A stretch of DNA of 64,000 nt. Origin: Candidatus Moranbacteria bacterium GW2011_GWC2_40_12. Its GTDB lineage: Bacteria; Patescibacteriota; Minisyncoccia; Moranbacterales; UBA11712. The stretch is taken from assembly GCA_000995965.1 (NCBI GenBank), contig LBYD01000002.1, forward strand, positions 135,889 to 199,888, given 5' to 3'. Shown here in pieces: positions 1-50,282 of this stretch. Below the pieces are notes generated by a model. It was not told where the DNA came from. It ran no database searches and was given only the letters and a program-made list of their open reading frames with translations. The translations under genes were made by a program, and so were the position numbers. Position 1 is the stretch's first letter. Each line of letters opens with the position of its first letter.

Positions 1-127
1 CATACGCGGGCAAGCCATATTTTTTCGAACACAGAAAATGCCCAGCCACATCCAAGCAGGATTGGAAAAGAGACATATTTCTCGTCACCGTAAGTTCCCA
101 ATTTTTATTTCGAAAGCGAATCATATA

Positions 128-1576
128 TTATTTCCTTTTGATTATCCTCACAACCCCCTTATCCGCATCCACTTCCACTAAATCGCCGTCACGCAAAACT
201 TTTGTCGCGATTTTGGTGCCGATGATACAAGGCTTCTTCATTTCTCTTGCGATAATAGCCGCATGACAAGTTATTCCGCCCTCATCTGTTATGAAAGCAG
301 CTGCTTTTTCCATCGCACCTATAAAATCGGGTGTTGTCATGGCCGCGACCAAGATGCACCCTTTTCTGCTTTTTCTAAAATCTGATTTATCCCTAATAAT
401 AACTACTCTTCCTCTAACTTTTCCGCGAAAGGCGACATTGCCTTTGACTTCATGGTTTCCAATATTATCTTCTTCGAAATATTTGTTCTTATACTTTTCT
501 ATTTCTTCTTGATTGGAGGAAAAAATTATCTTATTGGGAGATTTTGAAAAAATAATATAATTCTTCAATCTTTTGGTGAGTTCCGATTTTCTGACTGATC
601 TAATCGATGAAATTTCATTTAGTCTAAACTGAGCAATTTCCCTAAAAGCATATCCCTTTCTTTTCCCTATTTCTGCGAGCAAAGGCCTGATATTAAACAT
701 GGCTAAATTCAAATAATCCGTTCTAAATGTTCGGAAATATACCAATTCCTTTGCGTTTTTAATCAATCGTCTTGCGAATTTATCGGCTTTAATTTGCCTT
801 AAAATTTCCTCTGATTTTTGTTTTAGATTGCGCCTGTTTTTTTCTAGAGTAACTAACTTCTTTGCGCAGTCCTCTTTTACTGATTCTTTCAATCTGACAA
901 ACACGTCTTCTTCAGTCCAAGCATCATCCAAACCGCCTCTTGTCATCCAGCCAAACTTCTTGATGTGTCTTTTGATCCTGACTCGATATTTTTTTGGCAA
1001 ACCAGAGACCAATTGAACGGATATCTTGCCCTTTCTGAACGCAACCGCAATTTTTAGAAGCGCCTCTTGCTCTTTGTTAATAATGTTTTTTTTATATGGC
1101 GAAGACAGAATTGCTAAATCTTCGCCGATATCAATTCTTCTTTTTAATAATTCTCTCAATTTTTCCTCTAAAGGAATCTGCAGACAAAAACCGGCAAGCG
1201 TGACCGAAAAAGTTTCATAATAATCTGTAAATTCATCAAAAATATAGACTAATTCTTCCAAGCTAAGATCTGTTAAATCTATCTTCTTAATATCTGCTGA
1301 TTTTTTTATTAAATCTTCTCCTAACTTATATGTATTCGAAAAAAACTTGTCCAGATAATTTTTTTCTTTCGAATCTTTTTCAAGCAGTCTTTCTCCTAGC
1401 TTCTTGAAGTCTTTGGAATAAAACCAGCGATCAAGAATCACTCCCGATGGTATAAACAAGCTAGAGATAAAGAATATCTTTTCGACCTTTTTTGGCTTAG
1501 AAAAACCTCTGATAAATAATTCGGATGTCAGCACGCCATATTTTCGGGATACGTATTGCTCAAATATTTTTTTCAT
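128..1576 (-). CDS. PEP-utilizing enzyme mobile (phosphohistidine swivel) domain protein, paralog 1
   Basis: 482 aa ORF. The C-terminal ~95 aa (GKVRGRV..TTPDF..AAAFITDEGGITCHAAIIARE..P..GTKIATKVL.DGDLVEVDADKGVV) matches the PEP-utilizers mobile domain of PpsA/PPDK/rifampin phosphotransferase, with the catalytic His in TCHAAI. The N-terminal ~380 aa is an unrecognised domain shared with five paralogs downstream. Confidence 0.75.
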   Translation of the reverse strand: MKKIFEQYVSRKYGVLTSELFIRGFSKPKKVEKIFFISSLFIPSGVILDRWFYSKDFKKLGERLLEKDSKEKNYLDKFFSNTYKLGEDLIKKSADIKKIDLTDLSLEELVYIFDEFTDYYETFSVTLAGFCLQIPLEEKLRELLKRRIDIGEDLAILSSPYKKNIINKEQEALLKIAVAFRKGKISVQLVSGLPKKYRVRIKRHIKKFGWMTRGGLDDAWTEEDVFVRLKESVKEDCAKKLVTLEKNRRNLKQKSEEILRQIKADKFARRLIKNAKELVYFRTFRTDYLNLAMFNIRPLLAEIGKRKGYAFREIAQFRLNEISSIRSVRKSELTKRLKNYIIFSKSPNKIIFSSNQEEIEKYKNKYFEEDNIGNHEVKGNVAFRGKVRGRVVIIRDKSDFRKSRKGCILVAAMTTPDFIGAMEKAAAFITDEGGITCHAAIIAREMKKPCIIGTKIATKVLRDGDLVEVDADKGVVRIIKRK

Positions 1577-2628
1577 CTGTATCTTTTTATTATCTTCACA
1601 ACCCCCTTATCCGCATCAACTTCCACTAGATCACCGTCGTGCAAAACTTTGGTGGCAATTTTCGTGCCAACAATGCAAGGTTTCTGTATTTCTCTTGCTG
1701 TTATAGCCGCGTGGGAGAGCGTGCCGCCAGCGTCAGTTATAAATGCCGACGAATTCATAATCAGGGACAAAAACGCCGGCCTTGTCATTCCAGTAACCAG
1801 TATTTCTCCTTTTTTAATCGTCTGAAGCGTAGGATCTAAGATGATTCTGACTCGACCTCTAACTTTTCCGCGAAAGGCTGGATGTCCTTTTAGAATTTTG
1901 GTAATTTGTTTTCCAATAATTTTATTTTCGTAAAGTTCAGCTTTCTTGCCAGACAGTATTCTGTATTCGCCTCGTTTAAATATCATCGCTATTTTTCTGA
2001 ATCTTTCTTCAAGTATTTTCATCATAGGGACGACATTTTCTTTGTGATAACAATCTATTTCATCCTCTGTTAATTCATTGATTAAAAAAACAGGATATGA
2101 AGTTTTCCGAGAAATCCCAAGGAAATATCTTTGAAAAAATTTTTCTGATTCAACATAAATATGTTCGGAATAAACTCGAGCCTTACTAAATTCTAAAAGC
2201 AACTTCCCATAATCTTTTTTCAAAAGAAAATCGCTAGAAAATTTTATTGCCGCATGCCAAGCGACATAATTTTTCATCGCCTCTAATACTGTGAAATAAT
2301 GTTTTTCTGTTAACTTTTTTTCTTTATGTATTTCCTTTAACATTTTATCTATATAATCGGTTTGCTTTCTAATATTTTTTATCCAAAGAAAAGCTATTTT
2401 TCTGTTTGATTCTATTTTTCGAGCTAGCTTATCGCCAAATTTGGTTATTTCTATTTCTGGCACGAAACCGGCGCTTAAGCCTTTAGCGCCTATTACAAGA
2501 TAATTATCAAAAGAGGTTCCTAGATATTTCCTCATACCTTTAGTATAAAGAAATCCAGGAAATGAAGATGACAACATTCCCCATTTTCCATCCCAAGTCT
2601 TTGTCCACTTCTTATCTTTTTCCATCAT
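1573..2628 (-). CDS. PEP-utilizing mobile domain protein, paralog 2 (short N-terminal domain)
   Basis: 351 aa. Same C-terminal swivel-His domain (TLSHAAITARE, HDGDLVEVDADKGVVKIIKR). Its 3' DNA is ~80% identical to paralog 1, and a 4-nt ATGA overlap couples it to paralog 1. Confidence 0.75.
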   Translation of the reverse strand: MMEKDKKWTKTWDGKWGMLSSSFPGFLYTKGMRKYLGTSFDNYLVIGAKGLSAGFVPEIEITKFGDKLARKIESNRKIAFLWIKNIRKQTDYIDKMLKEIHKEKKLTEKHYFTVLEAMKNYVAWHAAIKFSSDFLLKKDYGKLLLEFSKARVYSEHIYVESEKFFQRYFLGISRKTSYPVFLINELTEDEIDCYHKENVVPMMKILEERFRKIAMIFKRGEYRILSGKKAELYENKIIGKQITKILKGHPAFRGKVRGRVRIILDPTLQTIKKGEILVTGMTRPAFLSLIMNSSAFITDAGGTLSHAAITAREIQKPCIVGTKIATKVLHDGDLVEVDADKGVVKIIKRYR

Positions 2629-3086
2629 ACTTTATTTATCATCATAAGCGCCGCCTCAGCCGCTTCGCGGCCTTTGTTTTCTTTACCGCGGGAGCGGACT
2701 TGGGCTTGCTTCAGATTGTTGCACGTTAGCACTCCAAATCCGATCGGGATATCGAATTTTAGCATCACGTCCATGATGCCTCGCGAGGATTCATTGCAAA
2801 TATAATAATAGTGATCGGTCTGGCCTTTGATGACACAGCCGATAGCGACAAGCGCGTCGTATTTTTTTGTTTGCGCCAGCCTTTGGCAAGCCAGCGGGAT
2901 TTCAAAAGACCCTGGAACCCAAACAGTTTTTATATTTCCCGCCTTAACTTTATTTTCCTTGAGCGTTTCCAGCGCGCCATCAAGCATTGATTTCGTGATA
3001 TTGCTATTGAACTGCGAAACCACAATTCCAATTTTCAATTTTGACCCGTCATTTTTTTTCGAGTGCCCTTTTTTAGCATTTAGCAT
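2625..3086 (-). CDS. ribH: 6,7-dimethyl-8-ribityllumazine synthase
   Basis: 153 aa with KIGIVVSQFN.., GSFEIPLA and VIKGQTDHY motifs typical of RibH. Confidence 0.85.
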   Translation of the reverse strand: MLNAKKGHSKKNDGSKLKIGIVVSQFNSNITKSMLDGALETLKENKVKAGNIKTVWVPGSFEIPLACQRLAQTKKYDALVAIGCVIKGQTDHYYYICNESSRGIMDVMLKFDIPIGFGVLTCNNLKQAQVRSRGKENKGREAAEAALMMINKV

Positions 3087-3675
3087 GTCCGGTATTTTTT
3101 AAAATATTAAAAATATATTTCGCGATTGCATCCGTCTCAATATTCACTTTTGCGCCGACTTTGATTTTTCCGAGATTGGTGTTTTCAAGCGTATAGCTCA
3201 CGAGCGAGACCGTAAACCAGTTTTTCTTTGACTCAACGATTGTGAGGCTGATTCCATCAATGGAAACCGACCCCTTCGGCGCCATAAATTTCATAAATTC
3301 TTTCGGAACTTTTATTTTTATCACTATCGATTCTTTCACTTTTTTTATTTCAATAATTTTACCCACACAATCCACGTGCCCCTGCACAATGTGCCCGTCC
3401 ATGAGATCCCCAACCCGCAAACTTCGCTCAAGATTAACTTCTTTACCTTTTTGAAAATCTCCGACAGTAGTTTTTTTGACTGTTTCCGGCATATATTCGA
3501 CCGTAAAATTACCACGGCTTATTTTATTGACCGTCGAGCAGACACCATTCACTGAAATACTTTCGCCAAGTTTAATATCCCAGCCTCTTGGAATTTTTAT
3601 CTCAACAAAAAGACTTCCCTTTTGCCAAGATATTCTGTCGACTTTCGATAATTTTTTGATTATTCCTGTAAACAT
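3073..3675 (-). CDS. ribE: riboflavin synthase alpha subunit
   Basis: 200 aa starting MFTGII.., with SISVNGVCSTV and GDLMDGHIVQGHVD lumazine-binding repeat motifs. Confidence 0.85.
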   Translation of the reverse strand: MFTGIIKKLSKVDRISWQKGSLFVEIKIPRGWDIKLGESISVNGVCSTVNKISRGNFTVEYMPETVKKTTVGDFQKGKEVNLERSLRVGDLMDGHIVQGHVDCVGKIIEIKKVKESIVIKIKVPKEFMKFMAPKGSVSIDGISLTIVESKKNWFTVSLVSYTLENTNLGKIKVGAKVNIETDAIAKYIFNILKNTGHAKC

Positions 3676-3705
3676 AAGCGACTCGCGAATTTGAGCAAAT
3701 TATAG

Positions 3706-4485
3706 CTAATATAAGCGAACTCTTGGATTTACGATTCGTTTATACTGCAGTTTATTCAACTTGAAATTTATTATTATGCCGAGCTTTAAACCTGTTGCGT
3801 CTAGATATCTTAGCACTTGTTTAACGTCATTGTAATGTATAAAATTCACCCGCTTGAACTCCAGCAAAATTTTATTATCTATAACAAAATCTGCAAAAAA
3901 TTCTCCTATTTCAGAATTATCTTTGGTTTTTACCACCATTTGTCTTTCTTTCTCATAAGGCATTTTGAGCTTTTTTAGTCTTTCCTCAAACAATTTCTGA
4001 TAATGCTTTTCCTGATAAATATTTCCAAGTTCATTGTGCACTTCCATAGCCAAACCGACTATTTTATAACTTAACTCCGGATAAACCAAACCTTTATTCG
4101 CTCCCATTCGCTTTTCATTAGCTCCATATTCGCGAGTTATTCTTTCAATATCTTTTTTTATCTGCCTTTTCAACTCTTCCTCGCTTTTGAATTTCATGAT
4201 GTTTCTAATCTTCTCCCCAATCTCTATTTCAATTTCTTTTCCGTATAAATCCCCCTTGAATCCGATAAGATGCGCTTCGAGCAATTTCCCATCCTGACTC
4301 ACAAAAATCCCAGCCAACCACTCATTCGCTCCGATTCGCTTTCCATTCGCTCCTAATTCGCGAGTTATTACTTTCCCCGCATAAACCCCGTTTTCAATTT
4401 TTTCATGAAGCTTAATATTAGCCGTTGGAAAATCAAGTTTTTTTCCTTTTCCCTTGCCATGAATTACTGTTCCGCATATTTTCAT
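3706..4485 (-). CDS. riboflavin kinase domain fused to GxxExxY-family domain, with repeat-encoded in-frame insertions
   Basis: N-terminal GKGKGKKLDFPTANI..EAHLIGFKGDLYGKEIEIEI resembles the RibF kinase domain. C-terminal IVGLAMEVHNELGNIYQEKHYQ...LGIIINFK resembles GxxExxY proteins. Two segments, RELGANGKRIGANEW and REYGANEKRMGANKG, are encoded by copies of the dispersed attcgc repeat. Confidence 0.6.
   Translation of the reverse strand: MKICGTVIHGKGKGKKLDFPTANIKLHEKIENGVYAGKVITRELGANGKRIGANEWLAGIFVSQDGKLLEAHLIGFKGDLYGKEIEIEIGEKIRNIMKFKSEEELKRQIKKDIERITREYGANEKRMGANKGLVYPELSYKIVGLAMEVHNELGNIYQEKHYQKLFEERLKKLKMPYEKERQMVVKTKDNSEIGEFFADFVIDNKILLEFKRVNFIHYNDVKQVLRYLDATGLKLGIIINFKLNKLQYKRIVNPRVRLY
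4096..4138 (-). repeat. attcgc-family repeat copy inside coding sequence (encodes ..TREYGANEKRMGANKG..)
   Basis: Sequence attcgctcccattcgcttttcattagctccatattcgcgagtt; related copies at 4323-4366, 3686-3745, 12881-12960, 13416-13522 and 50706-50810. Confidence 0.7.
4323..4366 (-). repeat. attcgc-family repeat copy inside coding sequence (encodes ..RELGANGKRIGANEW..)
   Basis: Sequence cattcgctccgattcgctttccattcgctcctaattcgcgagtt, in the same orientation as the copy at 4096, ~230 bp away. Confidence 0.7.
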
Positions 4486-5951
4486 GATTTTCTTTTCAAT
4501 ATTTTTACGACGCCGTGATTCGCCCGCACTTCCACCAAATCTCCATCATGCAAAACTTTTGTCGCAATTTTTGTTGCCACAATCCCGGGAATTTTGAGCT
4601 CGCGTGAAACAATCGCCGCGTGGCAAGTCATTCCGCCTTCATCGGTCACAACTGCAGAGGCTTTCCTCAAAGCGACTATGTAATCAGGAGTTGTCATGGT
4701 TGTAACGAGAATATCGCCTTTTTTCATTTTCCCAATTTCTCTGGGACTAAGCACAATTTTTACTCTTCCCGTCACGTTTCCCCGGTTGACAACCAATCCC
4801 CTGAGTTCCTGTATATTTTTTTCCACACTTTTCTTCGCATACCGCTGAAATGTTTTTTGAGCAGCTATTCCCGAAAACAAATGGATCATTTCTTCGCCCG
4901 GATCCGCGTAGACCAAAAATCCTTTCTTTCTTCTCACGATTTCATCTTCGCTTACTGCCCGTCCGCTTACCAAACTTTCCAGATCCCCGACTGTATAAAA
5001 AAATAAGTTGTCGCTCTTTACTCTATACCTTCCGGAAAATTCCTTGAGAAACAAACTTATGACATAATTCGCCTGGAAAATGAATGATTTCCGGAGATCC
5101 TGCCACCAAATGCAAAAAGCCAGTTGTCGGCCTATTGTCAGGATTGTTTTTGGCAGTTTATGTCTTTTTGCTGTTTTTTTCTTATTTTTAATCGTCTCTT
5201 TTTTTATTTTTTCAATTTCCCTTATCTTCTTTCTCGCCCGCTCCGCAGTTATCCCGCCTAAATTTTTCCCGAAGAAAGAAATAGGCAATATTTGAACATG
5301 ATGGTAACTGTTGAGCATCCAAAAATATTTCTTCTGGTGCTCCGCCAGCCTTTCACCTCTTTTTTTATTATCTTTTTCAAGCGCTATTGCCAGCAAATCC
5401 ATACTTTCTTTTTGATAAAAAGAAAGGTCTTCCGGAGCAGTCAAGCTTTCAAGGGCCTGAATAAAATCGCTTTCGTCTCTTATTCTATTTCTCAATTCTT
5501 TCACGAGCAGCTGCTCGCCGCCCCAGCCGGCCATTTCCGGCAGAAGCCCATTTCGCCAAAAATTTCTATTATAAATTGAAATGAATTTTGAAAATAGTTT
5601 TCTCAAATCAACGTCCGCCAACGAAGAAAGATTCGTTTTTTCGATTTTATTTTTGATCAGGATAAAATTCTTCAAATCTTTTTGCCATTTCGCATAAGCT
5701 TTTTTGAATCTCGTTTTGCTCAAAACATATTTTTTGAAAATTTTCTCCCCGTCATCGTGCAATTTTTTGTGGTCGCATACAAAAACCAGTTTTCCTTTTT
5801 CATAAAAGATAACGTTGGGAGGCCACCCGGGTTGATAAATCCGGCTGAAAATAAACGTTCCCAAATTCCAAAAATCGGGGAACACCGGCTGGCCATCAGC
5901 CGGTCCCCAATAAAATATTTTTCTTTTTGGATCAATCTTGATCTTGATCAT
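4482..5951 (-). CDS. PEP-utilizing mobile domain protein, paralog 3
   Basis: 489 aa with C-terminal swivel-His domain (GGMTCHAAIVSRELKIPGIVATKIATKVLHDGDLVEVRANHGVVKILKRK). Confidence 0.75.
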   Translation of the reverse strand: MIKIKIDPKRKIFYWGPADGQPVFPDFWNLGTFIFSRIYQPGWPPNVIFYEKGKLVFVCDHKKLHDDGEKIFKKYVLSKTRFKKAYAKWQKDLKNFILIKNKIEKTNLSSLADVDLRKLFSKFISIYNRNFWRNGLLPEMAGWGGEQLLVKELRNRIRDESDFIQALESLTAPEDLSFYQKESMDLLAIALEKDNKKRGERLAEHQKKYFWMLNSYHHVQILPISFFGKNLGGITAERARKKIREIEKIKKETIKNKKKTAKRHKLPKTILTIGRQLAFCIWWQDLRKSFIFQANYVISLFLKEFSGRYRVKSDNLFFYTVGDLESLVSGRAVSEDEIVRRKKGFLVYADPGEEMIHLFSGIAAQKTFQRYAKKSVEKNIQELRGLVVNRGNVTGRVKIVLSPREIGKMKKGDILVTTMTTPDYIVALRKASAVVTDEGGMTCHAAIVSRELKIPGIVATKIATKVLHDGDLVEVRANHGVVKILKRKS

Positions 5952-7426
5952 TATAATTTTCTTATCAGCCCCTTTTCCGCATCGACTTCAATGGTATCTC
6001 CGTCTTTTATGACGGACAAAATTCCTTGCACGCCGACAATGCAGGGAGTCTTGAGCTCCCGCGAAACAATGGCCGCGTGGCAGGTGATGCCTCCTTCTTG
6101 CGAAATAATCGCTCCCGCGATTTTCAAAACGGGGAGAAATTCGGGGCGGGGGTTGGGAGCCACCAATATATCGCCCTTTTTCATTTTGTGAAAATCATTT
6201 TGGTCCCGGATGATTTTCACTTTTCCCTCGACAATCCCCGCGTAAGCCGGCATGCCACTAAGCCCCGAATATTTGCCAACTTGCTCTTTGAGAAATACAT
6301 TGAGTCTTTCGGCCTGTTTTCCCTTCATGGCCGAAAATTTTTCGAGGCCGGTTTTGAAATATAGCCAGCCTTTCGGCCGCGATTCAATTTCGCGTATTCT
6401 TTGTTTGTTCAGCTTGAACAAGTTTTTCATTTCCCAGTGGAACATATATTCCACTGCGTTTATCTCAAGTCCGGACTTGCGGCTGAATTCTTCCGCAAAT
6501 TTTCGCAAGGTGTTCCCGGCCATCTGGTTGAAACTTTTTCGCGCGTCACGGAAATTCCCCAGTATCGCCAGAAAATTTATCACGTTAATAAATTCTTTTG
6601 AAAGCCTATATTTTTTCGCTATTCTTTTTTTTCTGCTTTCTAAATTGGCAAGCGCTCTTCGCATTTCTTTTTCCTCCCGAAGTTTCTTTTTATCTTGAAT
6701 AATTTCTTTGATTTTTTTGAGGAAATGCCGCTGGTCCAGATAATGGACTTTCGCAAAATCATTCTGCAGCCAATAATAGTTTGCGACGATACTTCGCAAA
6801 TATTTGTTTCTCCCGTCTTCTGAAATATTTTTCTTCAACATTATCTCCGCCAGTTTCAGCAGGTCCATCCTTTCCTTTTGCAAAAATGACGGTCCCGGGG
6901 GAGTTAGCAAGATTTCCAAATCACTCCCATCAATATTTTTCTTTTCCCTGTCCATGGCCTTCCGCAATATTTCTTCTCCAAAATAGTCGAAGGAATCAAG
7001 AAAAATGGCTTCATACCAAACAGCAAGGTAGATATCGGTAAATTTTTTAAATAAAGCTAAAAGTTCGGCGTCTGAATATTTCGACAAATCTTGGCCAAAT
7101 GTTTTTTTGTTTAAGTTCAAATATGGGTTGACGTATTTTTTGTGCCAGTTGTTGATTAGCTTGGAAATAAATTTTTTATCCCTCTTTTGTCTTTCATAAT
7201 AATATCTTCCTCCGCTCTCCAAAGAGCGTTTAGAGATATAATCGTCCATAAAATCATTTTTTATATAGACAAAAAGTTCGTATTTCGGCGGAATCTTTTT
7301 CCCGAATATTTTCATGAGAGAACATGCGTGCCACGGATAGGAAATATAAAGCGGCTTCACCGCCGCTCCCTGCTGGTACCATTCGATTTTCCCGATTTTT
7401 TCCCTTATTTCTTTGCAGTTCATCAA
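5951..7426 (-). CDS. PEP-utilizing mobile domain protein, paralog 4
   Basis: 491 aa with C-terminus GGITCHAAIVSRELKTPCIVG..DGDTIEVDAEKGLI. Confidence 0.75.
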   Translation of the reverse strand: MMNCKEIREKIGKIEWYQQGAAVKPLYISYPWHACSLMKIFGKKIPPKYELFVYIKNDFMDDYISKRSLESGGRYYYERQKRDKKFISKLINNWHKKYVNPYLNLNKKTFGQDLSKYSDAELLALFKKFTDIYLAVWYEAIFLDSFDYFGEEILRKAMDREKKNIDGSDLEILLTPPGPSFLQKERMDLLKLAEIMLKKNISEDGRNKYLRSIVANYYWLQNDFAKVHYLDQRHFLKKIKEIIQDKKKLREEKEMRRALANLESRKKRIAKKYRLSKEFINVINFLAILGNFRDARKSFNQMAGNTLRKFAEEFSRKSGLEINAVEYMFHWEMKNLFKLNKQRIREIESRPKGWLYFKTGLEKFSAMKGKQAERLNVFLKEQVGKYSGLSGMPAYAGIVEGKVKIIRDQNDFHKMKKGDILVAPNPRPEFLPVLKIAGAIISQEGGITCHAAIVSRELKTPCIVGVQGILSVIKDGDTIEVDAEKGLIRKL

Positions 7427-7427
7427 T

Positions 7428-8861
7428 TTATAGCTTGATTATTTTTGCCACGCCCTTTGTCGCATCAACTTCAACAATGTCATTGTCCTCAAATATTTTC
7501 GTGGCAATTTTCGTCCCCACGATACACGGGATTTTCAATTCCCGCGAAACAATTGCGGCATGGCAAGTGAGCCCGCCCTCATCCGTAATAATTGCAGCCG
7601 CTTTTTTCATTACCGCGATATAGTCTGGGGTAGTCATGCCGCAGATCAACACATCTCTCCTTTTAATCTTCCTCAATGCGTCTTCTAGCCCATTACAGAC
7701 TTTCGCTGTTCCGGTCACTTTGCCCGGCATAGCTCCGAAGCCTTTAACTTCATTGCCGTTCTCAATATTTTCTTTAATCTCTGATCTGAATTTTTTTACA
7801 GCAGCCTTCCCTCTAAAAACCTTTAGTCCGTTGCCGTCTATAAGCGTAAGCGTTGCCTGTTTGCCTTTGATAATTTCTTTACGGTTAAACTTGCCTTTTT
7901 GCAGCGCTTCAAAAACCTCGTTGCCCCAAAGCCAGTTCAGGTCCTCTTCATCAATTTTGAGACGCCTGGACATTTCCAGCATAATCAAATAAAGGGCATG
8001 GTTTGTCTTTACCTGCATCTCTTTTCGCGCCTCGTGATAGTATGCATATTTATCTAAAAATTCGAGCCAAATCGAAATTTTTTCCAGCTTATATTTTTTT
8101 GTTAATCTTGACCGATTGTTTTTTATCTCCCGTTGCTGCGCTCTGATTTCTTTCAATTTTTTCTTTGCCCTGGCTTTATCTGAAATCCTTTTTATTCGAG
8201 AAATAAAATATTTTTCCGAGTGCGGCGTCAAATTTTCCCAGCCAAGACCCGTCCACCAATACCGCTTATATAGCCCCGTATAATCTTTTTCGGTTATATT
8301 TTTTTTCAGGGCAAGCTTCAGCACGGCTTCTTCCTCTTGGTTCAGATACGTTTTGTATGCGGGAATCGATATTGCCTCGAAGAATTTCTGGAATTCTTCT
8401 TCGTTTATTGGTTTTTTCAGATTCTCTTTTATTTTATTTCGAAGAAAATCTTCAAAGTGTACATCAAACGCATCGATGTCCACGTTTAGGAGCCCATGCG
8501 CGGGTCCCGCTTCTCTAATCAGAAAAATATAAAGATTGATTAATTCACCATTTGAACAATCGCGAAGATTGTACTCATAAATCTTTTCAGCCGCAATTAT
8601 TGCTTTTTTAATAAGTTTGTCGAACCGATGAAAGTGTTTTTTTCTTCCAAGGGAAGTGGCGCAAAGCTTCATCGTATGGCGGCCCAAGACGCGGATTCGT
8701 TTTTCTCCCCAAGCGAAGATGAGTTTTGGCCCATGATCAAAGAAAATAGACTCTACGACAGGCGCGCCGGTGAGTTTAGCCGAATACTCATGATGCCCCA
8801 GTAGCGCAAGCGTAAACCAATTTGGATAAATTGTTCCCCTTGAATAAGTTAACCAATCCAT
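7428..8861 (-). CDS. PEP-utilizing mobile domain protein, paralog 5
   Basis: 477 aa with C-terminus GGLTCHAAIVSRELKIPCIVGTKIATKIFEDNDIVEVDATKGVAKIIKL. Confidence 0.75.
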   Translation of the reverse strand: MDWLTYSRGTIYPNWFTLALLGHHEYSAKLTGAPVVESIFFDHGPKLIFAWGEKRIRVLGRHTMKLCATSLGRKKHFHRFDKLIKKAIIAAEKIYEYNLRDCSNGELINLYIFLIREAGPAHGLLNVDIDAFDVHFEDFLRNKIKENLKKPINEEEFQKFFEAISIPAYKTYLNQEEEAVLKLALKKNITEKDYTGLYKRYWWTGLGWENLTPHSEKYFISRIKRISDKARAKKKLKEIRAQQREIKNNRSRLTKKYKLEKISIWLEFLDKYAYYHEARKEMQVKTNHALYLIMLEMSRRLKIDEEDLNWLWGNEVFEALQKGKFNRKEIIKGKQATLTLIDGNGLKVFRGKAAVKKFRSEIKENIENGNEVKGFGAMPGKVTGTAKVCNGLEDALRKIKRRDVLICGMTTPDYIAVMKKAAAIITDEGGLTCHAAIVSRELKIPCIVGTKIATKIFEDNDIVEVDATKGVAKIIKL

Positions 8862-8959
8862 TTGAAGGAATAATCAAGCTGAATTACTAGCCAAATGTTA
8901 GCTTAAAAAGGCCTTTTTTACAAGAGATTTCGCAATTGTTTCACGGAAACACACCGAAC

Positions 8960-8988
8960 TTGACATTTAGAGAAAAAGAGGCTATAAT
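8960..8988 (+). promoter_or_regulatory. consensus sigma70-type promoter (TTGACA-17-TATAAT) driving the high-GC cassette gene
   Basis: ttgaca at 8960-8965, a 17-nt spacer, then tataat at 8983-8988; a perfect match to both hexamers. Confidence 0.6.
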
Positions 8989-9131
8989 TATACGTTATTG
9001 TTCTTTGAAAGCGGGTTTCACGCATTTGCCTGCCGATTAGTTAACTCCAATGTGGTCGCAAAAAAATAATCTTGCGTTTACTTTGAGTTAACTAACGGCA
9101 CCTGGTGCCGATCATTTTGAAGAAGGATGAC

Positions 9132-9779
9132 ATGAACGACAAACCCCAAGTAACGATTGAAACGGTTGAGGTTAATATCCACGGCATGCGCCATGGGGAC
9201 AAGGACGGCGATACCCTGACTGAAAAAGGCAAGGAACAAGTCGCGAAAAGTGCGCGGAAAAACCTGGCCGGTATTTCGATTGACGCCTACTATTCTTCCC
9301 TGCGTACTCGCGCCTTCGAGACGGCTGATGTCGTCTATGAAACCATCGGCTCGAAGACCGAGGTCGAAATCGCCCATCGCCGCGCCGCTTTCGATTTCTG
9401 TGGCGCACCCGGCATCACCAACACCAAGGCTGTAACGGAGGGCGAAAAAGCCTACCGCGAAGAGCACGGCATCGAGAAAGAAACGGTAGGCACCTGGAGG
9501 CAAGGCGCTCCTGCCTGGACGGATTTCCTCCGCGGCCGCGTTTACCAGGGACTCAAAGATGTGGCCACCGAGCAGGCCTTCGACGCCAAGGGCAACGCGG
9601 TGAAAAACGTTTTTATCGGTTCCCACAGCCCGACCATCGAGTTGGCCGTGGCCGACCCCAATTTTCCCCGGCTCCGGGAAGCGGACATGGTGCTCTACCG
9701 TTTCATCGTCGTGAAGACGAACGGCGAAATTACCTCTGTGAACCTGGAAACCGTCGACTACATCGACCGCGGGTTCTAA
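9132..9779 (+). CDS. histidine phosphatase (phosphoglycerate-mutase-like) family protein, in a high-GC horizontally acquired cassette
   Basis: IHGMRHGDKDGDTLTEKGKEQ fits the RHG...LTE.G..Q signature, and FIGSHSPTIE the C-terminal SH motif. GC is ~58% against ~38-40% in the flanks. ATG 9132 has an aagga RBS. The ORF track starts at GTG 9105, which lies inside a cggcacc/ggtgccg palindrome. Confidence 0.6.
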   Translation: MNDKPQVTIETVEVNIHGMRHGDKDGDTLTEKGKEQVAKSARKNLAGISIDAYYSSLRTRAFETADVVYETIGSKTEVEIAHRRAAFDFCGAPGITNTKAVTEGEKAYREEHGIEKETVGTWRQGAPAWTDFLRGRVYQGLKDVATEQAFDAKGNAVKNVFIGSHSPTIELAVADPNFPRLREADMVLYRFIVVKTNGEITSVNLETVDYIDRGF

Positions 9780-9822
9780 ACTCGCACCAACCAGGCCGGC
9801 TAAACCAAAGCCCGTGCCTGCG

Positions 9823-9859
9823 AAAGCCCAGTCTTCGGATTGGGCTTTCTTCTTTTTTG
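9823..9859 (+). terminator. rho-independent terminator (possibly bidirectional)
   Basis: Stem aaagcccagtc, loop ttcg, stem gattgggcttt, followed by cttcttttttg; lies between convergent genes. Confidence 0.7.
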
Positions 9860-10054
9860 AAAAAAAATCGGCACACATCTGAAATATGCCGACATTATTC
9901 ATTCTATTTTTGGTCATTAATTATTGTTTTTTTCTTAATTTTTCCATCCCTTCTTCCGCGATTTTGCGAAATTCGTCATAAAATAAATTTTCCATCATCT
10001 TTTCCAGAAGATCGAGCAGTTTTTTTCGGTTTTTGTAAACAAATGCCATATTAG

Positions 10055-10522
10055 TTATTCTCTCTTCCGTATATCTGCCAAAGCGTCCATGTCATGAAAA
10101 AATTTCTTATTCGGCGTGTCATAAACTTTTTTCCATTCAACGTCCTTGAGCTGATCAAAATCGTTAATGGTGATTATATCCACAACCTCTTTCGTTTTTT
10201 TCTTGTCATATCCCACTGAATCCAAAATGTCTTTGGCTATTTTAGCGCCGGCCAGCATATGCACCAGTTTCGCGTTGACGATTTTTTTTGGTCCAGTCAC
10301 ATAGGCAAAATGTTCCGGAAGAAGCAACGCATGACCAATGTCGTGCATCATTGCAACTGGAATGATCACGTCTTTGTCATGCTTTATATTTCCCTGGTAG
10401 CTTAATACTAATTTTACAGTTTCTTTCGCATGCACGTCATCACCCGGACGGCCTTTTTTCAAGATCGGCAAAGCCTTTTTCCAGATTTTTTCGTATTTCT
10501 CCGGAAGGTTCTCGATTTTCAT
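10055..10522 (-). CDS. HD-domain phosphohydrolase
   Basis: 155 aa with HAKETVKL and MMHDIGHALL, an H..HD metal-binding signature. Confidence 0.65.
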   Translation of the reverse strand: MKIENLPEKYEKIWKKALPILKKGRPGDDVHAKETVKLVLSYQGNIKHDKDVIIPVAMMHDIGHALLLPEHFAYVTGPKKIVNAKLVHMLAGAKIAKDILDSVGYDKKKTKEVVDIITINDFDQLKDVEWKKVYDTPNKKFFHDMDALADIRKRE

Positions 10523-10526
10523 AAAA

Positions 10527-12074
10527 TTACGCTTTCCTTAAAATTTTAACGATCCCCCTATTGGCATCAACCTCGACTAGATCGCCGTCTTTCAAAATTT
10601 TCGTGGCAATTTTTGTTCCGACGATGCAGGGTTTCTTGAGTTCCCGAGAAACAATCGCCGCGTGCGAGATAATTCCTCCTGTGTCCGTCACGATCGCTGC
10701 CGCTCTTTTGAGACCCATAATCAAATCCGGATTAGTTGCCGAGGAAACCAATATATCCCCGTCTTTTACTTTGGCTGCATCTTTAGCGACAAGAACTATT
10801 TTCACCATTCCTTTAGCTTTTCCTTTATACGCCATCATCCCTTTGAGTTCACCAGTTTTCTCCTGGTCGAACTCTTTGTCGCTTTCTATTTTCAGTTTAG
10901 TAATAATTTCTTTTGCCTCCTTGCCTTCAAAAACTTTTATTCCCCCATTTATTGCGATATAACAACAGCGCCTTGTCCTTTCTTTCGCAATCTTTCGGTA
11001 TTTTTTTGCTTTCCTGTTATTAATCGCATCCTTGATATCTTCGAGCACTAAATATTTAATCTCCTTGGATGTCATCACTAATCTTCTCGCGATCTCATTA
11101 ATTATTTTATCCATGGCGACATATGATTTCTGATAAATTCCTTTTCGGAAATCCTTGATGAACATCATTTCCGCTGAAACTTGAAACGCATACTTCAAAT
11201 TTTCTGGCAGTTTTATTTTTTTTTGAATCCTCTGTTTCTCTTTCCTAATATTTTCATAATGATTCAGTATTATATTTTTCTGCTTCTTGGCGTCCCCTGT
11301 TTTCAGATTTTCGGCAAGCGCCCCAAGAAGATATTCCGCAGTCATGGCCGGTCCGGCATAGGCATATGTCAGCCAACCAAAATCTTTGAGATGTTTTTGA
11401 AATAGCTTATCAACCGACGGATACTTTTCGCTAAAATTTTTGTAATTGTTCTTTTCAATGTCCTGAATGACATTTTTTGATTTTTTGTCGGCCATTATTT
11501 TCAGGAGTAAATCCAACCTGGCAATTTCTTCTTCCTGAACTTCACTTTTCTTTTCGCTGGAGCTAAGAACCGTATAGTAATCACTAAACTTTTTCTCCTG
11601 CCCAAGTTTTTCAAGATACTTTCTAAACTCTGCTATGAGATAATCGCTCAAATAGGCTTTCTCCATCCCATCCATTGACGAAGGGATCCAACCCCAAACT
11701 CTCAAGGTCCGCAGTTTCCCCATATAATCAAGATACAATTGTAATAATTGCTTATCGCTTAATTTTTTTACGTTGGCTATTCTGTCAATGCGTTTGCAGA
11801 ATTTCATCAGTTCATCGCTATACTGATAAATGTTCTTGATAGATTTTCGGAAGAATGCTTTATCATCGATTAACTTTTTCAAAAAACCTTCTCCGACAGC
11901 ATTTGCCGATTCGCGATCATAATACATATGAATTCGGTCCTTTTCAAAATAGACGACAGCTTTTTTCACCACTGCCCTGGAAATTTTTCCTATATCTTTG
12001 GTAATCGTGAGGTCAGAAATATACCATGGGTAGATATACATATTGTCCCGCTCAAAAAGAAGTTTGAGAGCCAT
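10527..12074 (-). CDS. PEP-utilizing mobile domain protein, paralog 6
   Basis: 515 aa with C-terminus GGIISHAAIVSRELKKPCIVGTKIATKILKDGDLVEVDANRGIVKILRKA. Confidence 0.75.
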   Translation of the reverse strand: MALKLLFERDNMYIYPWYISDLTITKDIGKISRAVVKKAVVYFEKDRIHMYYDRESANAVGEGFLKKLIDDKAFFRKSIKNIYQYSDELMKFCKRIDRIANVKKLSDKQLLQLYLDYMGKLRTLRVWGWIPSSMDGMEKAYLSDYLIAEFRKYLEKLGQEKKFSDYYTVLSSSEKKSEVQEEEIARLDLLLKIMADKKSKNVIQDIEKNNYKNFSEKYPSVDKLFQKHLKDFGWLTYAYAGPAMTAEYLLGALAENLKTGDAKKQKNIILNHYENIRKEKQRIQKKIKLPENLKYAFQVSAEMMFIKDFRKGIYQKSYVAMDKIINEIARRLVMTSKEIKYLVLEDIKDAINNRKAKKYRKIAKERTRRCCYIAINGGIKVFEGKEAKEIITKLKIESDKEFDQEKTGELKGMMAYKGKAKGMVKIVLVAKDAAKVKDGDILVSSATNPDLIMGLKRAAAIVTDTGGIISHAAIVSRELKKPCIVGTKIATKILKDGDLVEVDANRGIVKILRKA

Positions 12075-20136: not shown

Positions 20137-20140
20137 TGTT

Positions 20141-21634: not shown

Positions 21635-21647
21635 CTCTATTTTTCTT

Positions 21648-26940: not shown

Positions 26941-27213
26941 TTTAGTAGTTAATAATAATTATTAAAGTTATATTAGTTATTTATTATATTAGGCGAGATG
27001 TTGTGGGGGTAAATTGTATTTTCGGCTTAAATAAAAATAATTTAGCGCGGTAAAATTGTGAATAGGGTTGTGGATAATTGTGGATAAGTTGAGTATATTT
27101 GTTTCAATTTCAGCACCATGGACTTTCTCCCAAGTTTATCAACTGTTTTTTCCTCTGTTATTTTTGTTAAAACAGGAACTCAGGGACACTTTTCCTCAGT
27201 TTATCCGCAGTTT
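26941..27213. promoter_or_regulatory. oriC-like region: AT-rich unwinding element plus DnaA boxes (dnaA-dnaN intergenic)
   Basis: An AT-rich tract at 26941-26995 (ttagtagttaataataattattaaagttatattagttatttattatatta), then two perfect tgtggataa boxes (the complement of ttatccaca) at 27069-27077 and 27079-27087, plus a tgtgaatag variant. Confidence 0.6.
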
Positions 27214-30011: not shown

Positions 30012-30025
30012 CTTTTGATAAAATT

Positions 30026-46481: not shown

Positions 46482-46518
46482 TTTGTTAATTGAAATGATT
46501 TTTTATTTAAGCCGCTTC

Positions 46519-47148: not shown

Positions 47149-47171
47149 AACTTATGCCAATATTATCTATA

Positions 47172-49866: not shown

Positions 49867-49896
49867 AATGGAAAATGATAGTGTAAATTGTCAAAA

Positions 49897-50265: not shown

Positions 50266-50282
50266 TTTTATTTTTCAATTTT

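What the first reader, a model, noticed from the sequence alone, without database searches (positions are those of the whole stretch)
128..12074. Six tandem paralogs of a 'novel N-domain + PEP-utilizing swivel-His domain' protein, interleaved with riboflavin genes
Six minus-strand genes share a near-identical C-terminal phosphohistidine mobile domain (the PpsA/PPDK/rifampin-phosphotransferase type). Their ~300-400 aa N-terminal domains are strongly diverged and show neither PPDK_N ATP-grasp motifs nor a PEP-binding TIM barrel. The 3' ends are also conserved at DNA level (copies 1 and 2 are ~80% identical over ~150 nt), which would allow gene conversion or recombination between copies. ribH, ribE and a riboflavin-kinase fusion are embedded in the same operon. 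This could be a family of His-phosphotransfer enzymes with diversified substrate-recognition domains.
Basis: partly seen in the sequence, partly recalled or inferred. Interest (0 to 1): 0.6.

Follow-up and report, generated by a model that had tools for sequence, protein, structure and literature searches.

The report
Split dikinase array sharing one ATP-grasp
The six genes are real and belong to a nine-gene array of substrate-binding plus phospho-histidine modules that most likely all draw phosphate from one separately encoded ATP-binding protein, a one-to-many version of a known two-part kinase that is common in tiny-genome bacteria and archaea and appears undescribed.

Summary
Six minus-strand ORFs each end in a PF00391 swivel-His domain (E 1e-21 to 1e-26), and their N-domains are only 13-25% identical.

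The N-domain is not a new fold. An AlphaFold model (pLDDT 93.8) matches the rifampin-binding plus swivel domains of rifampin phosphotransferase (RPH) (Foldseek E 5e-14, TMq about 0.6). That is the architecture of HpeH, PpsA and CreH, the substrate subunits of two-component small-molecule dikinases.

The array continues past the window's left edge. It has nine modules in all, and the cluster ends with a stand-alone 338-aa PPDK_N ATP-grasp gene, the expected HpeI-like partner.

Of 71 species-level loci from Patescibacteria and DPANN archaea that carry such a stand-alone ATP-grasp, 60 have 1-7 module genes within 10 kb. All 171 modules lie on the ATP-grasp's strand.

The paralogs are ancient, each with its own orthologs elsewhere. 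The 3' DNA similarity (c1/c2 83% over 131 nt) is real but shows no gene-conversion tract.

Riboflavin kinase (RFK), RibE and RibH genes recur beside these arrays in divergent lineages.

Substrates are unknown. I rate it a new variant of a known kind: one ATP-grasp, many substrate modules.

The parts
1..124 (-). 5' end (first 41 codons) of a seventh module gene, c7 (492 aa, PF00391). The rest lies beyond the window's left edge.
   Evidence: Window 1-127 reverse-complemented equals L006 11450-11576. c7 is L006 11453-12931 and hits PF00391 at E 8.5e-24.
128..1576 (-). Module c1: helical substrate domain plus swivel-His domain. Catalytic His438 is the codon at 263-265.
   Evidence: PF00391 E 5.1e-26. 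Best N-domain ortholog is in L084 at 188 bits.
1573..2628 (-). Module c2: short variant (351 aa) with a truncated helical domain plus swivel-His (His306, codon 1711-1713).
   Evidence: PF00391 E 1.8e-21. The AlphaFold model has pLDDT 74.7, with residues 1-56 poorly predicted. Its best Foldseek hits are RPH, E 1.4e-10 over 262-377 columns. Modules of 340-390 aa recur in other loci.
2625..3086 (-). ribH, lumazine synthase.
   Evidence: PF00885 E 7.4e-56.
3073..3675 (-). ribE, riboflavin synthase.
   Evidence: PF00677 E 8e-49, two repeats.
3706..4485 (-). Riboflavin kinase domain fused to a PD-(D/E)XK / GxxExxY domain.
   Evidence: PF01687 E 2.2e-27 (aa 2-117) and PF13366 E 5.9e-26 (aa 137-251). 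TIGR04256 E 7.6e-27.
4482..5951 (-). Module c3 (His444, codon 4620-4622).
   Evidence: PF00391 E 7.1e-24. N-domain orthologs in L052, L021 and L010 score 216-265 bits.
5951..7426 (-). Module c4 (His450, codon 6077-6079). The ORF starts at a TTG; gene callers use the next codon, an ATG at 7423.
   Evidence: PF00391 E 1.1e-22. Ortholog in L017 scores 318 bits. Called as 490 aa.
7428..8861 (-). Module c5 (His434, codon 7560-7562). First gene of the long downstream transcription unit.
   Evidence: PF00391 E 2.6e-25. Identical to a protein annotated in a Candidatus Moranbacteria MAG (P0002).
8960..9849 (+). Opposite-strand histidine-phosphatase (PGAM/SixA superfamily) gene at 9105-9779. It has a perfect sigma-70 consensus promoter-like site (8960-8988) and a 12-bp-stem terminator-like hairpin (9822-9849). 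It interrupts the array.
   Evidence: PF00300 E 5.7e-8. Promoter and terminator scan. Local GC is 0.448 against 0.36-0.42 for the flanking bins.
10055..10522 (-). Small HD-domain protein downstream of c6, followed by a minus-strand terminator-like hairpin (9893-9867).
   Evidence: PF01966 E 2.7e-4, 21.6 bits against a cutoff of 22, so marginal. Terminator scan. A homolog sits inside the array of L063.
10527..12074 (-). Module c6 (His471, codon 10662-10664). This is the copy modelled at high confidence.
   Evidence: PF00391 E 3.8e-24. AlphaFold pLDDT 93.8, pTM 0.90. Top six Foldseek PDB hits are all RPH-Lm, E 5e-14 to 1e-11, TMq 0.41-0.63. In the profile alignment, K307-D308-x-R310-K311 aligns with RPH R666-E667-Y-P-K670.

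Best explanation
The six genes (nine in the full cluster) encode the substrate-binding plus phospho-carrier component of a split, ATP-dependent small-molecule dikinase of the RPH / HpeHI / phenylphosphate-synthase type.

Each module has a helical domain homologous to the rifampin-binding domain of RPH, followed by a C-terminal swivel phospho-histidine domain. None has an ATP-grasp domain. That domain is supplied in trans by one stand-alone 338-aa PPDK_N protein encoded as the last gene of the same-strand cluster, about 9.4 kb beyond the window's left edge.

Proposed cycle, inferred from RPH and HpeHI:
1. The ATP-grasp protein binds ATP and the module's swivel His attacks the beta-phosphate, giving AMP, Pi and His~P.
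2. The swivel domain returns to its own helical domain.
3. A basic-acidic-x-(R)-K motif there, aligned to RPH R666/E667/K670, positions the phosphoryl group for transfer to a hydroxyl of a bound small molecule.

Because the helical domains are only 13-25% identical while the swivel domains and the ATP-grasp are well conserved, one ATP-charging subunit most likely serves many modules of different substrate specificity (hub and spoke).

Shown here: domain content, fold homology, gene linkage, and conservation across lineages. Inferred: the trans phosphotransfer, the one-to-many sharing, and small-molecule rather than protein substrates. The substrates are unknown. Recurrent RFK-ribE-ribH genes and phosphatase-like genes in these clusters hint at flavin or cofactor-precursor handling and at phosphorylation/dephosphorylation pathways.
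For: **Domains**
- PF00391 in all copies, with no PF01326 or PF02896.
- Catalytic His and the T/SxxGGxxxH motif are invariant in all nine copies.

**Fold**
- The c6 model (pLDDT 93.8) has RPH-Lm as its top six PDB hits, aligned over about 560-590 columns. PPDK, pyruvate kinase and EI match only through the swivel domain (TMq 0.20 or less). c2 gives the same ranking.

**Sequence**
- phmmer and profile hits to RPH extend about 150 residues upstream of the swivel domain into the RIF-binding domain: query 254-509 against chain 614-866, E 4e-26.
- NCBIfam PRK06241 (RPH-like) matches also extend into the N-domain.
- In the profile alignment, c6 K307-D308-x-x-K311 aligns with RPH R666-E667-x-x-K670. 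Those residues are required for phosphotransfer in RPH (PMC4844700). The acidic residue is kept in 7 of 9 copies and the Lys in 8 of 9.

**Partner gene**
- The stand-alone PPDK_N protein P0080 hits PF01326 at E 3e-95, covering profile positions 3-310 of 328. It ends right after the ATP-grasp domain and is the last gene before convergent genes.
- It matches the isolated RPH ATP-grasp domain (5hv6) at E 1.6e-58.

**Conservation of the arrangement**
- 71 of 80 species-level loci have a stand-alone 280-400-aa ATP-grasp. Of these, 60 have at least 1 module gene within 10 kb, 45 have at least 2 and 23 have at least 4. All 171 modules are on the ATP-grasp's strand.
- Three further loci found through metagenomic contigs show the same arrangement.
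- The ATP-grasp is 54-78% identical across these lineages, while paralogous N-domains are 13-25% identical.

**Precedent**
- HpeHI is a two-component dikinase. HpeI corresponds to the RPH ATP-grasp domain, and HpeH to the swivel plus RIF-binding-like domains. Mutating the HpeH His abolishes activity. CreHI and PpsAB are homologous (PMC12167813).
Against: - There is no biochemical evidence for any member of this clade.
- No solved or modelled complex shows that the ATP-grasp docks on these swivel domains.
- I could not check whether the genome encodes other ATP-grasp (PPDK_N) proteins elsewhere, so exclusive sharing of one hub is unproven.
- 11 of 71 loci have a stand-alone ATP-grasp with no module within 10 kb. 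Some of these loci are short contigs.
- The motif equivalence to RPH R666/E667/K670 rests on a low-confidence stretch of a profile alignment. A single-sequence alignment placed it 3 residues away. c1, c2, c8 and c9 deviate at one or more motif positions.
- All NCBIfam scores are far below the curated cutoffs, so this is not an ortholog of any characterised enzyme and its substrate class cannot be transferred.
- The helical domain could bind proteins, as the helical subdomain of PTS Enzyme I does, rather than small molecules.
Confidence: 0.72

Rival explanations
1. The genes are decayed pieces of ppsA or ppdK left by duplication and pseudogenisation, with no coherent function.
For: Public annotations call them 'phosphoenolpyruvate synthase' or 'PEP-utilizing enzyme'. 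The best PDB sequence hit for the swivel domain is PEP synthase 8a8e.
Against: All are intact ORFs of 351-526 aa. The N-domains have no PPDK_N or PEP-binding-barrel signal. They fold confidently into the RPH substrate-domain fold. The N-domain profile finds 4,545 cluster representatives at 50% identity, most of them about 470-520 aa. Each copy has conserved orthologs in other genomes. NCBIfam PEP-synthase scores are 93-119 bits against a cutoff of 598.
Confidence: 0.02
2. The array is kept similar by gene conversion between the conserved 3' ends and recombines to shuffle N-domains, that is, concerted evolution or diversity generation.
For: c1/c2 are 83% identical over 131 nt, c2/c7 80% over 101 nt, and c1/c9 84% over 63 nt at the 3' ends. 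In the last 35 codons, codon identity at identical residues is somewhat raised for c1/c7 (70%) and c1/c2 (61%).
Against: The longest exact match between any pair is 25 nt. Over the whole His domain, codon identity at identical residues is 28-57%, about the same as in the unrelated N-domains (26-55%). His domains are as similar to orthologs in other genomes (c3 to L010_8529 67%, c1 to L010_10964 67%) as to their closest paralogs. Each N-domain has an ortholog scoring 84-318 bits elsewhere (c9 excepted, 45 bits), against 82 bits or less between paralogs. The c1/c7 excess would not survive correction for 36 pairs (my estimate, not formally tested).
Confidence: 0.06
3. The modules are RPH-like antibiotic or xenobiotic-inactivating kinases, a multi-drug resistance battery protecting an episymbiont from compounds made by its hosts or neighbours.
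For: The closest solved structure is an antibiotic-resistance kinase. RPH belongs to a wide family of small-molecule dikinases, some of which act on antibiotics (PMC12167813). A CPR resistome survey reported rph-like hits (PMC8651080). Many diversified substrate domains would suit many toxins.
Against: RPH NCBIfam scores are 51-76 bits against a cutoff of 999. The RIF-contacting residues were not examined. The neighbours are metabolic genes (rib genes, a split asparagine-synthase-like gene, a methyltransferase, phosphatase-like genes) rather than efflux or resistance genes. Near-universal conservation next to a conserved ATP-grasp across Patescibacteria and DPANN looks more like core physiology than accessory resistance.
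Confidence: 0.12
4. The modules are protein-directed phosphocarriers, like Enzyme I / HPr, that relay phosphate to proteins for regulation or transport rather than to metabolites.
For: The swivel domain also matches PTS Enzyme I, whose N-terminal half pairs a His domain with a helical HPr-binding subdomain. A SixA-superfamily phosphatase gene lies inside the array; the sixA model itself hits only weakly, at E 7e-4.
Against: Foldseek TMq to EIN is about 0.15, against about 0.6 to RPH. The RPH phosphotransfer motif is largely conserved. No HPr-like or EII-like genes were seen in the cluster.
Confidence: 0.06

Closest known systems
Two-component small-molecule dikinases: HpeHI (Rhodococcus), AcvAB (Sphingobium), CreHI (Corynebacterium), phenylphosphate synthase PpsAB (Thauera/Aromatoleum)
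   Same: The architecture is split in the same way. One gene encodes only the ATP-grasp (HpeI-like; here P0080). Another encodes a RIF-binding-domain-like helical domain followed by a C-terminal swivel His domain (HpeH-like; here c1-c9). The genes are adjacent and co-directional, and the T/SxxGGxxxH motif is conserved (PMC12167813).
   Different: - Known systems are 1:1 pairs. Here one ATP-grasp gene accompanies nine modules, and 1-7 modules lie within 10 kb of it in other genomes.
- The modules are about 100 aa shorter than HpeH, whose catalytic His is at 581.
- They match the roughly 600-aa PRK08296 NCBIfam models only through the swivel domain. That those models represent the HpeH family is my inference.
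- No carboxylase or aromatic-catabolism genes are present. The hosts are Patescibacteria and DPANN with minimal metabolism.
Rifampin phosphotransferase (RPH-Lm; PDB 5FBS/5FBT/5FBU/5HV1)
   Same: It is the best structural match over the whole module, helical substrate domain plus swivel domain. The stand-alone ATP-grasp matches the RPH ATP-grasp domain at E 1.6e-58. The R-E-x-x-K phosphotransfer motif aligns with a largely conserved motif in the modules.
   Different: RPH is a single 867-aa chain with the ATP-grasp fused at the N-terminus. Identity is only 15-16% in the structural alignment. NCBIfam RPH scores are 51-76 bits against a cutoff of 999. Nothing indicates rifamycin as a substrate. 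A fused, RPH-like 836-aa form does occur in one related locus (L085).
PEP synthase (PpsA) and pyruvate phosphate dikinase (PPDK)
   Same: They share the swivel phospho-His domain (PF00391) and the ATP-grasp family (PF01326) of the partner protein. The presumed ATP to AMP + Pi dikinase chemistry is the same.
   Different: There is no PEP/pyruvate TIM-barrel domain. The His domain is C-terminal rather than central. The substrate domain has a different fold. The subunits are separate.
Prodigiosin ligases PigC / RedH / HapC
   Same: They belong to the same superfamily (ATP-grasp, a middle helical domain, and a C-terminal swivel His). NCBIfam hits to PigC and RedH reach into the N-domain of c6 and c3.
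   Different: They are single-chain enzymes of about 880 aa that condense pyrrole precursors. Scores are 47-75 bits against cutoffs of 1300-1350.

Membership tests
PEP-utilising enzyme mobile (swivel phospho-His) domain, PF00391 | Pfam score above the gathering threshold. | tested here: met
   76-90 bits against a cutoff of 23.1 for c1-c6. 78-83 bits for c7-c9.
PEP-utilising enzyme mobile (swivel phospho-His) domain, PF00391 | Catalytic His in a T/S-x-x-G-G-x-x-x-H motif. | tested here: met
   Invariant in all nine copies. In c6 these are T463, G466, G467 and H471; c4 has Ser at the first position. The motif is as defined in PMC12167813.
PEP synthase / PPDK | N-terminal PPDK_N ATP-grasp (PF01326) in the same polypeptide. 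| tested here: not met
   No PF01326 hit in c1-c9 at E up to 0.1 for c1-c6 and up to 0.01 for c7-c9.
PEP synthase / PPDK | C-terminal PEP/pyruvate-binding TIM barrel (PF02896). | tested here: not met
   No hit in any copy or in any neighbouring gene.
PEP synthase / PPDK | Score above the NCBIfam equivalog cutoff (NF005057, TIGR01418). | tested here: not met
   93-119 bits against a cutoff of 598, and 84-114 bits against 739.75. Only the swivel region matches.
Rifampin phosphotransferase (RPH) | Helical rifampin-binding-domain fold preceding a C-terminal swivel domain. | tested here: met
   c6: Foldseek E 5.3e-14, TMq 0.58-0.63. c2: E 1.4e-10. Profile hit spans query 254-509 against chain 614-866.
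Rifampin phosphotransferase (RPH) | ATP-grasp, substrate domain and swivel domain in a single chain. | tested here: not met
   The ATP-grasp is a separate gene.
Rifampin phosphotransferase (RPH) | Phosphotransfer residues equivalent to R666, E667 and K670. | tested here: inconclusive
   The profile alignment puts K307/D308/K311 of c6 opposite R666/E667/K670. Across the nine copies the basic residue is kept in 6, the acidic residue in 7 and the Lys in 8. That stretch of the alignment has low posterior confidence, and a single-sequence alignment is shifted by 3 residues.
Rifampin phosphotransferase (RPH) | NCBIfam equivalog score (NF041857, cutoff 999) and rifamycin as substrate. | tested here: not met
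   51-76 bits. The substrate cannot be tested with these tools.
Two-component small-molecule dikinases (HpeHI / AcvAB / CreHI / PpsAB) | A separate ATP-grasp-only subunit encoded next to the substrate/swivel subunit. | tested here: met
   P0080 (338 aa, PF01326 E 3e-95) is the last gene of the same-strand cluster. The linkage is conserved in 60 of 71 loci.
Two-component small-molecule dikinases (HpeHI / AcvAB / CreHI / PpsAB) | The substrate subunit is a RIF-binding-domain-like domain plus a C-terminal swivel His. | tested here: met
   The architecture is as described for HpeH (PMC12167813).
Two-component small-molecule dikinases (HpeHI / AcvAB / CreHI / PpsAB) | One substrate subunit per ATP-grasp subunit. 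| tested here: not met
   Nine modules to one ATP-grasp in this cluster. The median is 2 and the maximum 7 within 10 kb elsewhere.
Two-component small-molecule dikinases (HpeHI / AcvAB / CreHI / PpsAB) | Both subunits are required for ATP-dependent phosphorylation, with AMP + Pi as products. | not testable with these tools
   Needs biochemistry.
Two-component small-molecule dikinases (HpeHI / AcvAB / CreHI / PpsAB) | Placement in a phenolic-catabolism context (a carboxylase and a phosphatase downstream). | tested here: not met
   No carboxylase genes in the cluster or the window. Phosphatase-like genes are present.

The most novel reading that the evidence does not exclude
Patescibacteria and DPANN archaea carry a previously unrecognised hub-and-spoke phosphorylation system. 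One highly conserved stand-alone ATP-grasp charges the swivel histidines of up to nine anciently diverged substrate modules, giving these minimal-genome symbionts a broad ATP-to-AMP driven battery for trapping or activating scavenged small molecules. Flavin or cofactor precursors may be among the substrates, given the recurrent RFK-ribE-ribH linkage. The module family has at least 4,500 clusters at 50% identity and none of it has been characterised.
Probability: 0.45. Interest if true: 0.8.

Novelty: new variant of a known kind. Interest (0 to 1): 0.62.

Why it matters
Candidate Phyla Radiation (CPR) bacteria and DPANN archaea have minimal metabolism, and what their conserved but unannotated genes do is largely unknown. 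Here a very large protein family turns out to be the substrate half of a split dikinase. Databases label it only 'PEP-utilizing enzyme' or mislabel it PEP synthase.

It sits in multi-copy arrays around a single conserved ATP-grasp. This matters in three ways:
- **Annotation.** It corrects a systematic misannotation that can create false PEP-synthase or gluconeogenesis calls in metabolic reconstructions of CPR genomes.
- **Enzymology.** It extends the recently defined two-component dikinase subfamily from 1:1 aromatic-catabolism enzymes to a one-to-many architecture. That raises testable questions about how one ATP-grasp recognises many swivel domains.
- **Physiology.** It yields a defined set of orthogroups whose substrates could reveal what these symbionts scavenge.

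The conserved adjacency to the last riboflavin-pathway genes gives a concrete first hypothesis to test.

Tried and rejected
- **N-domain profile against PDB sequences.** The six-sequence profile A2 gave nothing significant. The link to RPH appeared only with full-length queries and by fold.
- **Gene conversion.** I tested pairwise nucleotide identity, codon identity at identical residues, longest exact matches, and within-genome against between-genome similarity. None showed a conversion tract or concerted evolution.
- **Homologs of the c2 N-domain.** The search returned only 6 proteins, so the c2 model rests on a mixed alignment and is only moderately confident (pLDDT 74.7, residues 1-56 unreliable).
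- **A RibH-linked module type.** I asked whether the module next to RibH in other genomes is an ortholog of c2. It is not, so the flavin linkage is at the neighbourhood level, not tied to one module type.
- **Two ORFs that look like histidine phosphatases.** L006 12931-13854 and 17678-18610 carry 'RHG' and 'RHS' motifs by eye. They have no Pfam hit and no significant similarity to each other or to the His_Phos_1 gene, so I do not count them as phosphatases.
- **Window-wide RNA scans.** The Rfam (gathering threshold) and tRNA scans found nothing. In particular there is no FMN riboswitch ahead of the rib genes.
- **Missing pathway genes.** No PPDK_N, PEP-binding barrel, ribA, ribB or ribD genes were found among the 41 larger window ORFs scanned.

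Full report

Yes. The window has six intact minus-strand ORFs:

| Copy | Coordinates | Length |
|---|---|---|
| c1 | 128-1576 | 482 aa |
| c2 | 1573-2628 | 351 aa |
| c3 | 4482-5951 | 489 aa |
| c4 | 5951-7426 | 491 aa |
| c5 | 7428-8861 | 477 aa |
| c6 | 10527-12074 | 515 aa |

- Each has a single C-terminal hit to PF00391, the mobile domain of PEP-utilising enzymes, at E 1.8e-21 to 5.1e-26. None hits PF01326 or PF02896, and the N-terminal 245-410 residues have no significant Pfam hit.
- Between the copies lie ribH, ribE and a flavokinase fused to a PD-(D/E)XK (GxxExxY) domain.
- A small, marginal HD-domain gene follows c6.
- Most neighbouring genes overlap or abut, which fits co-translation.
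- N-domains are 13-25% identical between copies and swivel domains 41-66%.
- The DNA-level claim also holds: c1 and c2 are 83.2% identical over 131 nt at their 3' ends.

**2. What the window does not show.**

An exact-protein look-up places the window on a 124.6-kb contig of a Patescibacteria (Moranbacteria-like) MAG, GCA_001784895.1 MFSI01000013.1. The same locus appears in two other assemblies. The window starts inside a seventh copy: window 1-124 is the 5' end of c7.

Beyond the left edge, on the same strand, the genes run in this order:
- c7 (492 aa)
- a 307-aa ORF with no Pfam hit
- c8 (526 aa)
- an asparagine-synthase-like gene split into two ORFs
- two unknown ORFs
- c9 (471 aa)
- a SAM methyltransferase
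- last, a stand-alone 338-aa protein that is nothing but a PPDK_N ATP-grasp domain (P0080; PF01326 E 3e-95, profile positions 3-310 of 328). It is followed by convergent genes.

So the cluster holds nine modules and one ATP-grasp. It is not a single uninterrupted operon. A plus-strand His_Phos_1 gene (9105-9779, PF00300 E 5.7e-8) sits between c5 and the HD gene. A perfect TTGACA-17-TATAAT site lies upstream of it, with hairpin terminators on both strands around 9822-9893. c6-HD is therefore probably a separate transcription unit.

**3. What the N-domain is.**

- An AlphaFold2 model of c6, built from a 56-sequence alignment, is confident (pLDDT 93.8, pTM 0.90).
- Against the PDB, the six best Foldseek hits are all rifampin phosphotransferase from Listeria (E 5e-14 to 1e-11, TMq 0.41-0.63, about 560-590 aligned columns). 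The match therefore covers the helical domain as well as the swivel domain. PPDK, pyruvate kinase and PTS Enzyme I match only through the swivel domain (TMq 0.20 or less).
- Sequence agrees. phmmer and profile hits to RPH run from about 150 residues upstream of the swivel domain to the C-terminus. NCBIfam RPH-like models (PRK06241) also reach into the N-domain.
- In the profile alignment, c6 K307-D308-x-R310-K311 lies opposite RPH R666-E667-Y-P-K670. Those are the residues that hold the phosphate during the second transfer (PMC4844700). The motif is largely kept across the nine copies. That part of the alignment is weak, so I treat the equivalence as probable, not shown.
- The short copy c2 gave a moderate model (pLDDT 74.7, first 56 residues unreliable). 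It still ranks RPH first, with 262-377 aligned columns. It looks like a module with a truncated helical domain. Modules of similar size (340-390 aa) recur in other genomes.

**4. How it most likely works.**

RPH is a three-domain dikinase. The ATP-grasp loads the beta-phosphate of ATP onto the swivel His, releasing AMP and Pi. The swivel domain then carries the phosphate more than 40 Å to the substrate domain (PMC4844700).

A two-component version was characterised in 2025. In HpeHI, HpeI is the ATP-grasp and HpeH is the RIF-binding-like plus swivel part. CreHI and phenylphosphate synthase PpsAB are homologs (PMC12167813).

The modules here have the HpeH architecture, and P0080 has the HpeI architecture. 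P0080 matches the isolated RPH ATP-grasp domain (5hv6) at E 1.6e-58. I therefore read the cluster as a split dikinase in which one ATP-grasp charges many modules. The trans transfer and the sharing are inferences. The domain content, the fold and the linkage are shown.

**5. Is the arrangement conserved?**

- The N-domain profile finds 4,545 cluster representatives at 50% identity (3,053 at E 1e-10 or better). Most are 470-520 aa.
- Stand-alone ATP-grasp proteins of about 312-345 aa are abundant and well conserved.
- I scanned one genome per species for relatives of the ATP-grasp and searched the flanks with local HMMs. Of 80 loci, 71 carry a stand-alone 280-400-aa ATP-grasp.
- Of those 71, 60 have at least one module gene within 10 kb, 45 have at least two, 23 have at least four, and the maximum is seven. 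All 171 modules are on the ATP-grasp's strand.
- The hosts are Falkow-, Buchanan-, Doudna-, Kuenen-, Komeili-, Magasanik-, Uhr- and Sungbacteria, Saccharimonadales and other Patescibacteria, plus DPANN archaea (Iainarchaeum, Nanoarchaeota).
- Variants exist. There is a fused RPH-like 836-aa form (L085). There are giant 1,500-2,000-aa fusions of the ATP-grasp with several modules (L077, L082, L089, L091). Stand-alone 104-115-aa swivel domains occur beside or near the ATP-grasp (L009, L023, L025, L047, L048).

**6. Gene conversion?**

I found no support for it.
- The longest exact nucleotide match between any two copies is 25 nt.
- Codon identity at identical residues is 28-57% in the swivel domain and 26-55% in the N-domain, which is background.
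- Eight of the nine N-domains have an ortholog elsewhere that outscores any paralog in this genome:

| Copy | Best ortholog locus | Bits |
|---|---|---|
| c4 | L017 | 318 |
| c3 | L052 | 265 |
| c6 | L063 | 245 |
| c1 | L084 | 188 |
| c7 | L082 | 122 |
| c5 | L017 | 118 |
| c2 | L084 | 84 |

  Paralogs score 82 bits or less against each other. c8 is no exception in substance: its best ortholog hit (74 bits in L063) is below its best paralog score, and c9 has only a 45-bit hit.
- Swivel domains track those orthologs.
- The paralogs are therefore ancient. The conserved 3' ends are best explained by purifying selection on a domain that must dock on a shared partner, plus AT-biased codon use.

**7. 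The riboflavin genes.**

RFK, ribE and ribH are not a quirk of this genome.
- ribE-ribH pairs sit directly beside the array or the ATP-grasp, on the same strand, in six of the 80 loci. RibH identities to the window copy run from 79% down to 41% (L012, L042, L058, L061, L068, L083).
- RFK alone is present in three more loci.
- HAD-like hydrolases (9 loci), an RHx-motif protein family (8 loci) and a cytidylyltransferase-like protein (6 loci) also recur.
- No particular module type is tied to ribH.
- This is a lead on function, possibly flavin or cofactor-precursor handling with paired phosphorylation and dephosphorylation. It is not evidence of it.
- No FMN riboswitch was detected. No ribA, ribB or ribD genes were found among the 41 larger window ORFs scanned.

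**8. Comparison with what is known, and novelty.**

- These are not PEP synthase or PPDK. They have no ATP-grasp and no PEP barrel in cis, and scores are far below the cutoffs.
- They are not RPH orthologs. They score 51-76 bits against a cutoff of 999, and the architecture is split.
- They work like, and are architecturally members of, the two-component small-molecule dikinase subfamily. They differ from it in four ways: one ATP-grasp serves many modules, the modules are shorter, there is no aromatic-catabolism context, and the hosts are different.
- Full-text searches found no paper describing these arrays in CPR or DPANN. One resistome survey merely lists rph-like hits.
- I rate it a new variant of a known kind.

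**9. Verdict.**

- The finding is real.
- The 'novel N-domain' and 'gene conversion' parts are not supported.
- The key missing piece, the shared ATP-grasp, lies just outside the window.
- Interest is moderately high: a very large, misannotated, uncharacterised family with a clear and testable mechanism, in organisms whose physiology is obscure.

Noticed in passing
window 13595-23036 (+ strand): A co-directional cluster of peptide-ligase-type genes: 7TM_transglut, ATPgrasp_ST with a Zn_protease-like tail, two RimK-like ATP-grasps, an 853-aa ATP-grasp + Mur-ligase protein (cyanophycin-synthetase-like layout), an ATP-grasp_3 protein and a MATCAP-like carboxypeptidase. It looks like a system for making or trimming a peptide tag or polymer.
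   Followed up: no
window 8960-9849 (+ strand): A histidine-phosphatase-superfamily gene (PF00300; weak sixA and dPGM NCBIfam hits) lies on the opposite strand in the middle of the array. It has a 12/12 sigma-70 consensus promoter-like site and a strong hairpin terminator, and its GC is higher than that of its neighbours. JGI and ENA gene callers instead called a 279-aa ORF on the other strand.
   Followed up: partly
window 3706-4485 (-): The riboflavin kinase domain is fused to a PD-(D/E)XK_3 / GxxExxY domain. The PDDEXK part had no homolog in the 80 related loci. In L041 the kinase is fused to what looked by eye like an EamA-type membrane transporter (431 aa; no domain search was run).
   Followed up: partly
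L012, L042, L058, L061, L068, L083 (ribE-ribH); L041, L059, L067 (RFK only): RFK, ribE and ribH genes recur directly beside the dikinase array or its ATP-grasp in divergent Patescibacteria (RibH 41-79% identical to the window copy). This suggests a conserved linkage between flavin genes and this system.
   Followed up: partly
L077 5565-11624, L082 9986-15700, L089 9959-14584, L091 247-6230; proteins P0200-P0203: There are giant single ORFs of 1,500-2,300 aa. The four locus ORFs fuse the ATP-grasp with several substrate/swivel modules, and three of the four loci are from DPANN archaea. P0200-P0203 carry 3-4 N-domain stretches each. They may be true fusions or read-through gene calls.
   Followed up: no
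L009 10987-11325, L023 8570-8902, L025 8124-8471, L047 9316-9630, L048 1648-1980: Stand-alone swivel-His domains of 104-115 aa are encoded next to or near the ATP-grasp gene (abutting it in L009, L047 and L048). In L009 one is followed by a 365-aa ORF with no Pfam hit. That may be a fully three-way split version of the enzyme.
   Followed up: no
L006 15433-15774 and 15788-16981 (outside the window, same cluster): The asparagine-synthase-like gene is split into a 113-aa GATase piece and a 397-aa piece in all the assemblies where it was seen (three, a fourth; Pfam). It could be a frameshifted pseudogene, a programmed frameshift, or a genuinely split enzyme.
   Followed up: no
L006 12931-13854 and 17678-18610 (outside the window): Two ORFs of about 310 aa inside the array carry RHG or RHS motifs near the N-terminus, as histidine phosphatases do. 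They have no Pfam hit and no significant similarity to each other. The second has a homolog directly upstream of the ATP-grasp gene in L013 (E 4e-54).
   Followed up: partly
window 25789-28608 (-) and 29289-30514 (+): dnaN, dnaA, yidC and a KhpB/Jag-like gene mark the replication-origin region about 14 kb from the array. In L009 the array also lies next to dnaA and dnaN.
   Followed up: no
window 42752-52271 (-): A VirB4/TraG-type P-loop ATPase (47172-49016) and a PrgI-family protein (50283-50699) are surrounded by large ORFs with no Pfam hit, including one of 1,020 aa. This looks like a type-IV-secretion or competence-like apparatus. ORFs that looked by eye like these PrgI-type and membrane proteins also recur beside the arrays in 14-17 other loci; I did not compare them with the window genes.
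   Followed up: no
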